This document shows, one piece after another, positions 9,400-30,507 of a DNA stretch of 41,072 nt. Under the pieces are notes generated by a model. That model was not told the origin of the DNA. It ran no database searches and worked only from the letters and a program-made list of their open reading frames with translations. Positions within the stretch are counted from its first letter, which is position 1. Each line of letters opens with the position of its first letter. The DNA comes from a virus (lineage: Duplodnaviria; Caudoviricetes), in IMG/VR virus record IMGVR_UViG_3300022930_000012, positions 1 through 41,072 of that record. One strand, given 5' to 3'. The translations under genes and the position numbers were made by a program.

Positions 9400-9407
9400 T
9401 ATATTTG
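9400..9407 (+). promoter_or_regulatory. Bacteroidota -7 promoter for tRNA
   Basis: TATATTTG 10 nt upstream of tRNA. Confidence 0.7.
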
Positions 9408-9417
9408 CTTTGATATT

Positions 9418-9491
9418 GGTCTTTTAACTCAGTTGGTTAGAGTAGCGCACTCATAATGCGTTTGTCGGAGGTTCGAGTCCTTCAAAGTCCA
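9418..9491 (+). tRNA. tRNA with CAT anticodon (elongator Met or Ile2); CCA not encoded
   Basis: Cloverleaf: GGTCTTT/AAAGTCC acceptor (one T:T mismatch), ACTC/GAGT D stem, GCGCA/TGCGT anticodon stem with CTCATAA loop, GGAGG-TTCGAGT-CCTTC T arm. Confidence 0.9.
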
Positions 9492-9627
9492 CGAATGCAG
9501 TTCGATTCTGCTCGCTTACCGAGATTGTGGTAAATGCTTAATGCTTCAGTTCGAGTCTGGAGAGCTATTTTATAGCACGGGTATATAAGCGGTAATTTTA
9601 ACTAACGCAGTGATTGCAGGAGTTTTT

Positions 9628-14463: not shown

Positions 14464-14747
14464 GTCTTGACTGGTTTTTCTTGACGGTTAGCGGTTATTC
14501 ATTTATTGATATAGCAGGAACACTTATTTCAGGAAATTTAGCTATGGCTAGTTTGGAAAACTTTGTAAAATTGCTTTTGTCTATGGCGGGTTTTGTTTAT
14601 TTGTGCGCAAGAACTTACCACTTTATAATGAAATCGGCTTTAGAACGTGAAATGTTAAAGGAGGATATTATCGCAAAAAGAAACGATAACTTTCCTAAGA
14701 GATTCAAAAAAGAATTTATTGATAGATTTGAAAAAGACGGATTATGA
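14436..14747 (+). CDS. Putative holin/antiholin (2 TM)
   Basis: Overlaps endolysin start; highly charged C-terminus. Confidence 0.55.
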   Translation: MAKVKAFLLGLDWFFLTVSGYSFIDIAGTLISGNLAMASLENFVKLLLSMAGFVYLCARTYHFIMKSALEREMLKEDIIAKRNDNFPKRFKKEFIDRFEKDGL

Positions 14748-15298
14748 AACTATACGAAAAATATAAATCCTTACTTAATAACTCAGGAATAAACACTCCA
14801 TTAAGATTAGCTCATTTTATGGCGCAAATTGAACACGAAAGTAATTTGAAACCTATTCAGGAAAATTTAAACTATTCTGCCCAGGGATTGTTGAATGTGT
14901 TTAGCAAGTATTTTATAAGCAAAGAAATTGCCAAAATGTACGAAAGAAAACCCGAAAATATTGCAAATCGTGTTTATGCTAATCGTATGGGTAACGGATC
15001 AGAATCATCCGGTGAAGGATGGAAATACAGGGGTCGTGGTTTTATTCAGTTGACTGGTAAAGAAAACTATTTCCATTTATCAAATGATACCGATATTGAA
15101 TTTCTTAAAAATCCTGATTTACTTTTAGAAGAAGCTAATGCAATGATAAGCGCAATTTGGTTTTGGAATAAAAACGGATTAAATAAGTTAGCCGATAAAG
15201 ATGATTTAAATAGCATTACAAAACGGATTAATGGCGGTTTAAATGGTTTGGCACACAGAAAAGAATTACTTACTAAATATAAAAAAGAATTGTTATGA
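14744..15298 (+). CDS. Endolysin, glycoside hydrolase family 19
   Basis: AHFMAQIEHES, ENLNYS, YRGRGFIQLTGKENY, ITKRINGGLNGL motifs. Confidence 0.95.
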   Translation: MKLYEKYKSLLNNSGINTPLRLAHFMAQIEHESNLKPIQENLNYSAQGLLNVFSKYFISKEIAKMYERKPENIANRVYANRMGNGSESSGEGWKYRGRGFIQLTGKENYFHLSNDTDIEFLKNPDLLLEEANAMISAIWFWNKNGLNKLADKDDLNSITKRINGGLNGLAHRKELLTKYKKELL

Positions 15299-15359
15299 AA
15301 AACGAAATAGTAATATCAGATTTAGTAATTGGCGCAATAATAGATAAAGGAACATTTGT

Positions 15360-15920
15360 ATGAAAAAACTAAACGTAATTTACGGATGCTTTGTATTTAT
15401 GTTTCTATTATCGATGTGTTCCTGTGGTGCCAGGAAAGTAAATATTGAAAATCAAAAAGAAGAAACAAAAACCGAAATAAAGGACAATTCCGTTACTGAA
15501 ATAAAAACAGATACCAACGTTAAAAAAACTACAACGCTAAAGACTGACGATAAAAACGAAACTCTTACCGAGGAAACTGTTTACGAACCTGCAGATGCGT
15601 CAAAAGAAAGCTTTGTAATCGAAAAAGACGGAACTAAGACTGTGTTGAATAATACCAAAAAAACAGTCCGTAAAACGACCAAAAACAATAATACTTCAAT
15701 CATCAAGGAATCCTTGACAGTTGAAAACAAAAAAGAAGCCGTTAAGGAAGAAAAAGAAGTTGAGTATAAGGAAGTCTCAAAAAAAGAAATCAAGTCAAAA
15801 CAAGTAGATAAAAAGCAGTTTAATCCGTTTGTTTCAATATGTATTGGTTTGTTTGGATTGCTTGTACTATGGTGCGTTTACAGGTTTTACAAAAAGTTGC
15901 CGTTAGTTCCGAAATTATAA
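15360..15920 (+). CDS. Unimolecular spanin candidate
   Basis: N-terminal lipoprotein signal (MCSC-G), Thr/Lys/Glu-rich middle, C-terminal TM helix; follows endolysin. Confidence 0.75.
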   Translation: MKKLNVIYGCFVFMFLLSMCSCGARKVNIENQKEETKTEIKDNSVTEIKTDTNVKKTTTLKTDDKNETLTEETVYEPADASKESFVIEKDGTKTVLNNTKKTVRKTTKNNNTSIIKESLTVENKKEAVKEEKEVEYKEVSKKEIKSKQVDKKQFNPFVSICIGLFGLLVLWCVYRFYKKLPLVPKL

Positions 15921-15921
15921 T

Positions 15922-15929
15922 TATATTTG
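15922..15929 (+). promoter_or_regulatory. Bacteroidota -7 promoter
   Basis: TATATTTG. Confidence 0.7.
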
Positions 15930-15932
15930 CAT

Positions 15933-16032
15933 AGCTGTGGAGGCAATCTATTCATATTCATAATATTTGTTTTTTGGTTTTAGCGGAGTGGTTACCGCAC
16001 ATTAAAAACCGCTTCTTAATTGGAGCGGTTTT
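15933..16032 (+). ncRNA. Candidate small RNA of about 100 nt
   Basis: Bounded by a promoter and a terminator with no credible + strand ORF; U-rich tract complementary to start-codon regions. Confidence 0.55.
16005..16032 (+). terminator. Rho-independent terminator (possibly bidirectional)
   Basis: AAAACCGCTTC-ttaatt-GGAGCGGTTTT. Confidence 0.85.
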
Positions 16033-16121
16033 ACTGTTTATAGAAGTTAGTAAAATAAGGCAATTGTAAAATAAATTAAAAATAATTGTGTTTTTATGCT
16101 ATGGAATTAAAAAACTATTCT

Positions 16122-16129
16122 TATATTTG
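16122..16129 (+). promoter_or_regulatory. Bacteroidota -7 promoter for early operon
   Basis: TATATTTG upstream of ATG 16157. Confidence 0.7.
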
Positions 16130-16156
16130 CTTCATAGAAATTTAAAACTAAAAATT

Positions 16157-16540
16157 ATGAAAAACACGGACGAAGCATTAGGTAAACTAATCGAAAAAGG
16201 AATTGAAGTTGCAGAGCAAACAGGAAAATTTGTAATCGATCAAGCTCCTGAATTAATTCAACAATTTTACACATGGCATATTGCGCAAAATATTTTTGGC
16301 GTATTGTTGGGATTATTTTTATTTTTTGTTGCTTACAAAGTAATTATATTACTTGGAGAAGATGAAAGTAATTGGGATACAGATTTTAAATTATTTGGTA
16401 AACACGTTGGAATGGGAACAGGAATTATAAGCTCATGTATTTGTTTATTTGCTTCAATATTTTTATTCTGTAGCATTTATCAATTAATTTATATTTTAGT
16501 CGCTCCTAAACTTTATTTAATTGAATACTTTATAAAGTAA
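16157..16540 (+). CDS. Two-TM phage membrane protein
   Basis: FVIDQAPELIQQ...APKLYLIEY; start placed downstream of promoter. Confidence 0.7.
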   Translation: MKNTDEALGKLIEKGIEVAEQTGKFVIDQAPELIQQFYTWHIAQNIFGVLLGLFLFFVAYKVIILLGEDESNWDTDFKLFGKHVGMGTGIISSCICLFASIFLFCSIYQLIYILVAPKLYLIEYFIK

Positions 16541-16546
16541 TTAACC

Positions 16547-16765
16547 ATGAAAATAATCAACGAACTATTCCTATTATCGGAATTAAATCAAAAACAGTTT
16601 GCCGAAAAGCATAAAATTGAAGAAAGCTTATTCGGAAAATATCTAAAAGGGAAGGCGGTTCCTAGAAAGTCAACGCTTGACAGGATAGCCGATAAAGAAG
16701 GTTATATTATTTCAGAGGAACTTATGATTAAATCAGAATTTATTAACAACCAAAAAACAAAGTGA
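16547..16765 (+). CDS. XRE/Cro-like HTH regulator
   Basis: LNQKQFAEKHKIEESLFGKYLKGKAVP. Confidence 0.8.
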   Translation: MKIINELFLLSELNQKQFAEKHKIEESLFGKYLKGKAVPRKSTLDRIADKEGYIISEELMIKSEFINNQKTK

Positions 16766-16769
16766 TATT

Positions 16770-17015
16770 ATGAAAATTAAATACAAAGGGTTATCAGTAA
16801 TAGTGCAAAATGAAAACGAATTTAATCGACTAAAATATTTTTTAGGCGAAGATATTCTTTATTTAAATTGGCATGAAAATATGCAATTAAAAGAAACAGC
16901 AGTAGTCTTTTATGCGAAAAAGAAAACTGATTTATCTCCAGGACATGTAGGAAGTTCAGATTATCATTTATCACATGATTTAAGAGTTGTTTATTTCAAT
17001 GAATATTTTAAATAA
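16770..17015 (+). CDS. Hypothetical protein
   Basis: ORF in packed operon. Confidence 0.6.
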   Translation: MKIKYKGLSVIVQNENEFNRLKYFLGEDILYLNWHENMQLKETAVVFYAKKKTDLSPGHVGSSDYHLSHDLRVVYFNEYFK

Positions 17016-21452: not shown

Positions 21453-21475
21453 TTAACCACTTAAAAATAAATATT

Positions 21476-21700
21476 ATGAAAATAAAATTAGGATTCGGAT
21501 TTTATATTATAAGAACTCCGAAATCAGATAAAAGATTTGTAGCTAACCGAGCGTTAAAATTTATGGATGAATATTTTGGCAAGCATCAATATACTAATCC
21601 TGAGGTAAACATGACAAATAGACGAATGGGTTTTGAAGATGGTTATTTAGCGTGTTTGAAAGATTTAGGAATTAAATTAAGATATCCAACTAAAAAATAA
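21476..21700 (+). CDS. Hypothetical protein
   Basis: ATG 21476 after TAACCAC leader. Confidence 0.6.
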   Translation: MKIKLGFGFYIIRTPKSDKRFVANRALKFMDEYFGKHQYTNPEVNMTNRRMGFEDGYLACLKDLGIKLRYPTKK

Positions 21701-29785: not shown

Positions 29786-30031
29786 TTGGATATGAAAACA
29801 GGAAAAAAGAATTTAACCGCACAACAATTATACAATGCCTGTATGAATCACAGGTTTTTAATATTAAGATATTCAAGAGATAATTCTACTATTGCGGTTA
29901 ATTGTAGAATAGCAAGATTTACTTATTTATCTAATTTTAAAGATTCAGATCAAAGAACTAAATTTATTTCTTATACTCCATGTGGTTTTATGGAATACAT
30001 AACAAATAAAGTTCCATTCTTTTATGCGTAA
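29786..30031 (+). CDS. Hypothetical protein
   Basis: ORF. Confidence 0.5.
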   Translation: MDMKTGKKNLTAQQLYNACMNHRFLILRYSRDNSTIAVNCRIARFTYLSNFKDSDQRTKFISYTPCGFMEYITNKVPFFYA

Positions 30032-30216
30032 ATATTTAATCTGGTGGCGAAATTTACCTACCGAAACCAAAAAACAAATCATGCAATCCAACTCAATCAA
30101 AGTAATCACATACGCCGACATTAAGCGACTTTATTTGGAAGGGAGGAAATAAATTGAAAATAAAGTATTGTTATTAGAAATGTTTTTTATATCTTTTAAA
30201 AATAAAACTTAAAATT

Positions 30217-30507
30217 ATGAACTACGGAAAAGCAATTAAAGAATTAAGAAATTCATTATTATTAGAGAATCAAGACGATTTTTCACATAATATCGGAATT
30301 ACACAGGGTCATTTATCGTCTATTGAAAATGAAAAGAAAAACCCAAGCGCACAGCTATTAGAAAGAATATCTGAGTACACCAAAATTCCAACGCCTATAT
30401 TATCATGGTTGGCAATTGAAGAAAAAGATATTCCGGAAAATAAAAAAGAAGCATTTGAATTATTGAAGCCAAGTATTGATAATTTTGTTTCAGGATTTTT
30501 TAACTAA
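30217..30507 (+). CDS. XRE-family HTH transcriptional regulator
   Basis: GKAIKELR...IGITQGHLSSIENEKKNPS. Confidence 0.9.
   Translation: MNYGKAIKELRNSLLLENQDDFSHNIGITQGHLSSIENEKKNPSAQLLERISEYTKIPTPILSWLAIEEKDIPENKKEAFELLKPSIDNFVSGFFN

What the first reader, a model, noticed from the sequence alone, without database searches (positions are those of the whole stretch)
15922..16032. Stand-alone sRNA candidate complementary to Bacteroidota-type translation start regions
Seen: a TATATTTG promoter, about 100 nt with no credible + strand ORF, an internal GCGG/CCGC hairpin and a strong terminator, between the lysis and early modules. Its tract TTCATAATATTTGTTTTTTGGTTTTA is the reverse complement of TAAAACCAAAAAACAAATATTATGAA, an A-rich leader plus AUG. 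It could pair with the start of ORF 16770 (14 bp at 16748-16761, a 4-nt bulge, 9 bp at 16766-16774 covering the AUG), matches 16 nt at 30064-30079, and resembles the TAACCACTAAAACAAA leaders. Known: Bacteroidota initiate at A-rich leaders without SD. Inference: a trans-acting anti-initiation sRNA that could silence phage early genes or host mRNAs.
Basis: partly seen in the sequence, partly recalled or inferred. Interest (0 to 1): 0.7.

Follow-up and report, generated by a model that had tools for sequence, protein, structure and literature searches.

The report
Phage small RNA mirroring start codons
Between its lysis genes and its early genes, this Flavobacterium-type phage and most of its relatives keep a gene for a predicted 100-base non-coding RNA whose conserved stretch mirrors the start-codon region of phage messages, so it likely blocks their translation as the FopS and GibS RNAs do in gut Bacteroides, though no transcript has been seen.

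Summary
A TATATTTG promoter box, a U-rich UUCAUAAU tract, a small hairpin and a terminator lie at the late/early junction. The seed is kept in 16 of 19 related phage contigs found by the upstream gene, and beside 14 of 17 copies of the terminator, even when both neighbouring genes change. The hairpin arms covary around a kept UGGUU loop. The opposite-strand ORF is 2-24 aa and not conserved, so it is not a peptide gene. The tract pairs with phage start regions better than shuffles that keep the octamer (0 of 150), and better with this phage group's leaders than with outgroup phages. It is not tuned to its own genome, and no target gene is conserved, so ORF 16770 is only one candidate. The 30064 match lies inside an unlisted 42-aa gene. 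It is built like Bacteroides FopS/GibS but fails the Rfam FopS model, and its likeness to FopS is no more than ordinary inverted leaders show. Cultured Flavobacterium phage 11b has the same build, which makes it testable. Expression and host targets are untested. The scan has noted such elements on other phage DNA before. Verdict: new variant of a known kind.

The parts
15360..15920 (+). Upstream lysis-module gene, probable spanin-like lipoprotein (inferred from its place after the endolysin, an N-terminal hydrophobic stretch with Cys, and a C-terminal hydrophobic stretch); not part of the RNA
   Evidence: no family above cut-off; replaced by a different gene family in several carriers
15922..15929 (+). 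Bacteroidota -7 promoter box TATATTTG; TA(T/C)(A/C)TTT(G/A) precedes the seed in every homologue examined
   Evidence: consensus TANNTTTG with the start 4-5 nt downstream, PMC6847099 passages
15934..15956 (+). Predicted 5' segment of the RNA; variable, from almost none to about 100 nt in relatives, and holds a tRNA gene in L001
15957..15982 (+). Seed: UUCAUAAU plus a U-rich tract, complementary to AUUAUGAA starts and the A-run at about -9 to -13
   Evidence: opening energy only 2.3 kcal/mol
15983..15998 (+). Hairpin P1 (GCGG/CCGC) with UGGUU at 15989-15993 in the loop; arms covary; the same hairpin is the terminator itself in more distant elements
16005..16032 (+). Intrinsic terminator hairpin, A-run before and T-run after (likely works in both directions)
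16122..16129 (+). Separate TATATTTG promoter box of the early block, downstream of the terminator
16748..16774 (+). Best-scoring predicted target site, start of ORF 16770 (-22.5 kcal/mol)
21455..21480 (+). Predicted target site at the start ATG 21476: 18 contiguous pairs with one G-U (-20.5 kcal/mol)
30064..30079 (+). 16-nt exact complement inside a 42-aa ORF (30024-30152); probably incidental

Best explanation
The unit is likely a phage gene for a trans-acting RNA of about 99 nt (predicted 15934-16032) that would base-pair over the AUG and A-rich leader of several phage mRNAs and so lower their translation. Shown: the unit and its seed are conserved while neighbours and the 5' part change; the hairpin covaries; no peptide is conserved; the seed pairs with start regions better than shuffles, and better with this phage group's shared leader cassettes than with outgroup phages. 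Inferred: host RNA polymerase transcribes it from the -7 box, and possibly also as the 3' end of the lysis transcript. Its unpaired seed would cover the AUG and the adenines at -3 and -12/-13 that drive initiation in Flavobacterium, and would block ribosome loading as FopS-10 does. Because the RNA would build up during infection and its best phage matches lean towards early and accessory genes, it would most likely act as a delayed damper on those genes.
For: Conservation: seed in 16 of 19 contigs found by the upstream protein alone (one is cut by the contig end, several are identical copies), and 57-75 nt upstream of 14 of 17 terminator copies, the other 3 being plain terminators after a capsid-type gene. 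One strong copy per genome. Hairpin arms: native -6.5 versus swapped -4.1 kcal/mol, 1 of 20000 permutations, 17 arm pairs. U at +13 in 19 of 19 and at +14 to +17 in 16-18 of 19, facing mRNA -9 to -13; adenines at -3, -6, -12, -13 promote initiation (PMC6847099). Top-5 pairing -20.7 versus -16.4 +/- 1.3 for shuffles keeping TTCATAAT, 0 of 150; at or below -18: 7 of 77 starts versus 8 of 794 other ATGs; early versus late p 0.023. Family seeds favour family leaders by 2.0 kcal/mol, six outgroup seeds by 0.4. Precedent: FopS represses translation by pairing at start codons (PMC11697453). Same build before the early block of cultured phage 11b.
Against: No transcript has been seen. No robust tuning of a seed to its own genome: p 0.013-0.11 with 10 genomes, 0.06-0.08 with 17, and 0.18-0.42 in near-complete or newly added genomes alone. 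The best-matching gene differs from phage to phage. The best single site is matched by 8 of 150 octamer-keeping shuffles. Two late-side genes rank in the top four (1074, 8195), and ATTATGAA starts 13 of 77 genes, capsid and endolysin included. Group-level tuning could reflect origin from an inverted leader of the group, and the seeds and genomes compared are related. Three of 19 relatives lack the seed. Starts were called by a simple script; energies are hybridisation only.
Confidence: 0.48

Rival explanations
1. Same RNA and same blocking mechanism, but aimed at host mRNAs (for example Met-Lys-starting outer-membrane or TonB-dependent receptor genes), for host takeover or receptor shut-down.
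For: FopS targets are SusC-like transporter starts (PMC11697453 section 11). The seed extends over AUGAA(A/G). No own-genome tuning and no conserved phage target. A cellular Bacteroidota contig (ndk, PHP, BlaI genes) carries the same seed and UGGUU hairpin.
Against: Seeds favour this phage group's leaders over other Bacteroidota phages. The tract beyond the octamer varies between phages, more than a fixed host target would allow. No host genome was available to test it.
Confidence: 0.22
2. The unit is a stable 3' end or protein-binding RNA: the U-rich tract and UGGUU loop bind a host RNA-binding protein (RbpB-like) or nuclease, and pairing with mRNAs is secondary.
For: The UGGUU loop is kept while the arms change and recurs in distant elements. 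RbpB binds the FopS motif (PMC11697453 passages). It always sits at the end of the late block.
Against: The fixed letters spell exactly the complement of AUUAUGAA, and the order of the tract adds pairing beyond composition. A promoter box of its own is always present. The same terminator occurs without a seed after a capsid-type gene.
Confidence: 0.13
3. An inverted relic of a lost gene's start (terminator, leader, ATG), kept only because it sits beside a needed terminator.
For: Read backwards, real gene starts that follow a two-way terminator give the same layout (4 of 23 rows). Identity to FopS is no higher than for inverted leaders. Group-level tuning fits such an origin.
Against: The octamer, U-run, loop and promoter box are kept while the DNA on both sides of them is replaced; the arms covary; the build recurs in unrelated phages and in a cellular contig.
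Confidence: 0.09
4. The tract is the leader of a minus-strand small protein (MNMNRL..., 24 aa).
For: It has the look of a strong leader; the ORF exists.
Against: The equivalent ORFs are 2-24 aa with unrelated sequence in 18 family members and in 11b; no minus-strand TANNTTTG between 12573 and 18329; the terminator would block transcription from downstream (inferred).
Confidence: 0.02

Closest known systems
FopS, family of paralogous sRNAs of Bacteroides thetaiotaomicron (Rfam RF04319; PMC11697453)
   Same: TANNTTTG promoter, single-stranded UUCAUA seed with U-rich tract and GGUU, intrinsic terminator; pairing over start codons is the predicted mode; also carried by phages (paper; exact motif in 93 viral stretches). 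The window tract matches 18 of 23 nt of the FopS seed.
   Different: No RF04319 match. Single copy per phage genome, not 12-15 chromosomal paralogues. Extra covarying hairpin with UGGUU loop plus a second terminator, and a variable 5' part. Family mean identity to FopS 13.4 of 23 equals that of inverted phage leaders starting the same way (13.1), so convergence is not excluded. Predicted targets are phage leaders.
GibS of Bacteroides thetaiotaomicron (PMC7366714)
   Same: Trans-encoded RNA with an unstructured 5' seed that spans target start codons, internal weak hairpins, then a terminator (passages).
   Different: 145 nt, non-canonical promoter motif, host metabolic targets; no Rfam match to the window region at E up to 10.
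Unannotated unit in cultured Flavobacterium phage 11b (NC_006356.2, about 30326-30398)
   Same: TATATTTG, UUUUUUCAUAG U-rich tract with UGGUU, terminator, then the early-block promoter.
   Different: No internal hairpin, almost no 5' segment; not annotated as an RNA in the record; homology not shown.

Membership tests
FopS (RF04319) | Score above the Rfam gathering threshold | tested here: not met
   No hit on the element at E up to 10; 0 of 6 family loci versus 11 of 12 FopS-motif loci above threshold
FopS (RF04319) | R1/R1' seed sequence shared by descent | tested here: inconclusive
   Window 18 of 23, but family mean 13.4 versus 13.1 for 97 inverted leaders beginning TTCATAAT, 1 of which reaches 18
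FopS (RF04319) | Single-stranded seed followed directly by the terminator hairpin | tested here: not met
   An internal hairpin lies between seed and terminator in 17 of 18 family sequences; seed itself predicted open
FopS (RF04319) | Canonical Bacteroidota -7 promoter upstream | tested here: met
   (sequence motif only)
FopS (RF04319) | Multicopy in the genome | tested here: not met
   One strong copy per phage genome; host chromosome not available
FopS/GibS-type anti-initiation sRNA (mode of action) | Seed complementary to start-codon regions beyond chance | tested here: met
   (computed pairing only)
FopS/GibS-type anti-initiation sRNA (mode of action) | Discrete expressed RNA that represses translation of a target | not testable with these tools
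   No RNA holder listed
FopS/GibS-type anti-initiation sRNA (mode of action) | Binding by RbpB-type RRM protein | not testable with these tools
   Needs CLIP or EMSA
Type I toxin-antitoxin antisense RNA | Conserved small toxin ORF paired with the RNA | tested here: not met
   Opposite-strand ORFs 2-24 aa and unrelated

The most novel reading that the evidence does not exclude
The RNA is a group-wide silencing device: it reads the leader cassettes that this whole phage group shares in front of interchangeable early genes, so one 100-base RNA times the phage's own early programme and also mutes an incoming relative (RNA-based superinfection exclusion). It would belong to a Bacteroidota-wide class of anti-start-codon RNAs, marked by a UGGUU-loop hairpin, of which FopS and GibS are only the gut branch.
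Probability: 0.15. Interest if true: 0.8.

Novelty: new variant of a known kind. Interest (0 to 1): 0.5.

Why it matters
Bacteroidota start translation without a Shine-Dalgarno sequence, and among the papers my searches returned, sRNA control of their start regions is shown only for the Bacteroides RNAs GibS and FopS acting on host genes. A conserved phage-encoded RNA whose fixed U positions face the adenines that drive initiation would show phages using this layer to time their own genes or to silence hosts or relatives. The same build in cultured Flavobacterium phage 11b makes this directly testable, and a short programmable seed-plus-terminator scaffold could serve as a knock-down tool for Flavobacteriia.

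Tried and rejected
Rfam on 15000-17000: 4 weak matches, none on the element. blastn of the region against cultured phages and plasmids: only short chance or terminator-like pieces; the FpV9 hit lies inside a gene. First viral pattern was mis-specified and gave 1 unrelated hit. GTDB genomes: no relative of the upstream protein and 0 exact matches to one strict seed-plus-hairpin pattern; the pattern is too narrow to show absence from chromosomes. Sequencing runs: no RNA holder listed; two runs guessed as RNA did not cover the element and are contigs only; neither is evidence. Own-genome tuning looked weakly positive with 10 genomes and faded with 17. The second covariance model included a FopS row, so its FopS hits are partly by construction; it found nothing at E 0.5 in two Cytophagia plasmids and only weak hits, several being inverted leaders, in three cultured phages. 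No seed-plus-terminator unit in lillamy9-1 or Arctus_1, and no promoter-plus-seed pattern in FpV9 or Harreka_1. The F. johnsoniae supplement gave no leader sequences, so host targets stayed untested. The 30064 match was rejected as a likely target: it is coding sequence, kept in one homologue whose own seed differs. In the metagenome scan 8 of 15 hits lie in or over ORFs and were set aside as chance; in the loop-pattern viral scan most of 41 hits were ORF-internal or one cluster of a different build.

Full report
Setting. The window is a whole 41-kb virus record. Its long ORFs lie on the + strand. PHROG hits give tail and tape-measure genes, a GH19-type endolysin at 14744, early regulators, exonuclease, SSB, primase/helicase, terminase, portal and capsid; no integrase was hit among the 70 ORFs scanned. 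Intergenic TATATTTG/TATCTTTG boxes and A-rich leaders and nearest cultured relatives among Flavobacteriia phages point to a Flavobacterium-type host; that is an inference.

Observation. Every feature named is present: box 15922-15929, tract 15957-15982, hairpin 15983-15998, terminator 16005-16032. With the 4-5 nt spacing reported for F. johnsoniae (PMC6847099, passages) the RNA would run from about 15934 to 16032. The seed is predicted open (mean unpaired 0.57; opening energy 2.3 kcal/mol). The duplex with ORF 16770 is as described. The 16-mer at 30064 is exact and absent from 100 shuffles but lies in an unlisted 42-aa ORF.

Conservation. A search with the upstream protein, blind to the RNA, gave 19 viral contigs. 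Sixteen carry TTCATA(A/G) plus a U-rich tract downstream: one is cut by the contig end, and two sets are identical copies (L001/L007/L008, L002/L004). Three do not (L121, L124; L125 has only a degenerate tract). A scan for the terminator gave 17 stretches; 14 have promoter box, seed and hairpin upstream, 6 of them new and behind a different last gene, while 3 follow a capsid-type gene directly with no seed. The first downstream gene also varies. The 5' part between box and seed runs from almost nothing to about 100 nt and holds a tRNA in L001. A covariance model finds one strong copy per genome. In 19 junction sequences, positions +13 to +17 from the first T are U in 16-19 cases, though only the first six or eight letters were used as anchor; they face mRNA positions -9 to -13, and +7 faces -3, where adenines promote initiation.

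Hairpin. The arms change together (GCGG/CCGC, GCAG/CTGC, GTAG/CTAC, GAAG/CTTC, GGGA/TCCC, GCGT/ACGC, CAGG/CCTG) around UGGU(U). Native arm pairs average -6.5 kcal/mol against -4.1 for swapped arms, 1 of 20000 permutations over 17 pairs; the sequences are related and the best hairpin was chosen per sequence, so this is not a strict probability. In more distant elements this hairpin is itself the terminator: 7 of 15 metagenome hits are intergenic units, among them a cellular contig with ndk, PHP and BlaI genes (L161) and phage-like L163/L170; at least 9 of 41 viral hits of a loop pattern are such units. So the window's form probably arose by adding a second terminator behind an older seed-plus-terminator RNA (inference).

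No peptide. The minus-strand ORFs opened by the CAT are 2-24 aa and unrelated in 18 family members and in 11b, and no minus-strand promoter box serves them in the window. Four of the 23 rows in that scan are real gene starts read backwards behind a two-way terminator, which shows how the layout can arise by inversion.

Targets. Against 77 script-called starts the seed's five best duplexes average -20.7 kcal/mol; shuffles give -13.5, -14.4 (TTCAT kept) and -16.4 (TTCATAAT kept), each 0 of 150 as good; the single best site is equalled by 8 of 150 octamer-keeping shuffles. Seven of 77 starts but 8 of 794 other ATGs reach -18; early genes pair better than late ones (p 0.023). The top ranks are 16770, 1074, 21476, 8195, 23610, 17831, 30587; capsid and endolysin, which also start ATTATGAA, rank 34 and 27. 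Leader cassettes are shared across the group with different genes behind them. Seeds are not reliably tuned to their own genome, a test of low power given shared cassettes. Fourteen family seeds pair 2.0 kcal/mol better with nine family genomes than with four outgroup phages, six outgroup seeds 0.4 (p 0.0005, non-independent). Host targets could not be tested.

Known kind. FopS RNAs of B. thetaiotaomicron have a single-stranded seed plus terminator, pair at start codons, block translation in vitro and were noted in one phage (PMC11697453: abstract, passages, sections 10 and 11, supplement search hits). GibS has an unstructured seed, weak internal hairpins and a terminator (PMC7366714, passages). 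The FopS motif occurs in 93 viral stretches; 11 of 12 tested pass RF04319, 0 of 6 family loci do, and the element is not hit. The window tract matches FopS at 18 of 23 letters, but the family mean (13.4) equals that of inverted leaders (13.1). It therefore works like FopS/GibS by prediction and is not a member. Seven literature searches (listings only unless named above) showed no description of this phage element. The alignment files of a catalogue of viral structured RNAs (PMC10690425; files 1, 2 and 4) could not be searched and may hold it. Earlier scan notes describe like elements in other Bacteroidota phages; none matched this sequence; they are unchecked and not counted as support.

A testable case. 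Cultured Flavobacterium phage 11b has TATATTTG, a UUUUUUCAUAG tract and a terminator at about 30326-30398, just before its early-block promoter, unannotated; its best own match is the start of PHG11b_17.

Verdict. A real, conserved non-coding unit; probably an anti-initiation RNA (about 0.7 summed over phage and host targets), more likely damping phage early and accessory genes (0.48) than host genes (0.22). New variant of a known kind; interest 0.5.

Noticed in passing
window 9400-9570: tRNA gene with CAT anticodon (9418-9492) behind its own TATATTTG box, followed by tRNA-like remnants with GTTCGA motifs.
   Followed up: no
window 21476-21700: The ORF listed from TTG 21407 more likely starts at ATG 21476, behind a shared leader cassette.
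   Followed up: partly
window 30024-30152: Unlisted 42-aa ORF with one homologue in G007; no Pfam hit.
   Followed up: partly
early block of window and G001-G017: A set of near-identical leader cassettes is shared across the phage group with unrelated small genes behind each, suggesting gene swapping at leaders.
   Followed up: partly
L001:3556-3629; L019 and L095 upstream of the FopS motif: A tRNA gene (L001) or tRNA-like 3' end (L019, L095) lies directly before the seed; tRNA processing could release the seed RNA.
   Followed up: no
L161:1996-2060: Cellular Bacteroidota-type contig with promoter box, UUCAUAAU seed and UGGUU-loop terminator between a PHP gene and a BlaI gene: a chromosomal FopS-like unit; its taxon was not determined.
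   Followed up: partly
L179:30326-30398 (NC_006356.2): Unannotated candidate RNA gene in cultured Flavobacterium phage 11b.
   Followed up: partly
L205:1201-1260: Seed plus UGGUU hairpin plus terminator between convergent genes, one integrase-like by its N-terminal sequence.
   Followed up: no
L182 and about a dozen like loci, 1201-1250: A conserved GC-rich hairpin region between two long genes in phages that use an AGGAG ribosome site; different build, unexplained.
   Followed up: no
window 15934-15950 and L200 5' segment: Both 5' segments carry TGTGGAG inside a weak hairpin; meaning unknown.
   Followed up: no
L014-L106: The exact 24-nt FopS motif occurs in 93 IMG/VR stretches, far more than the one phage noted in the FopS paper; some may be host flanks of prophages.
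   Followed up: partly
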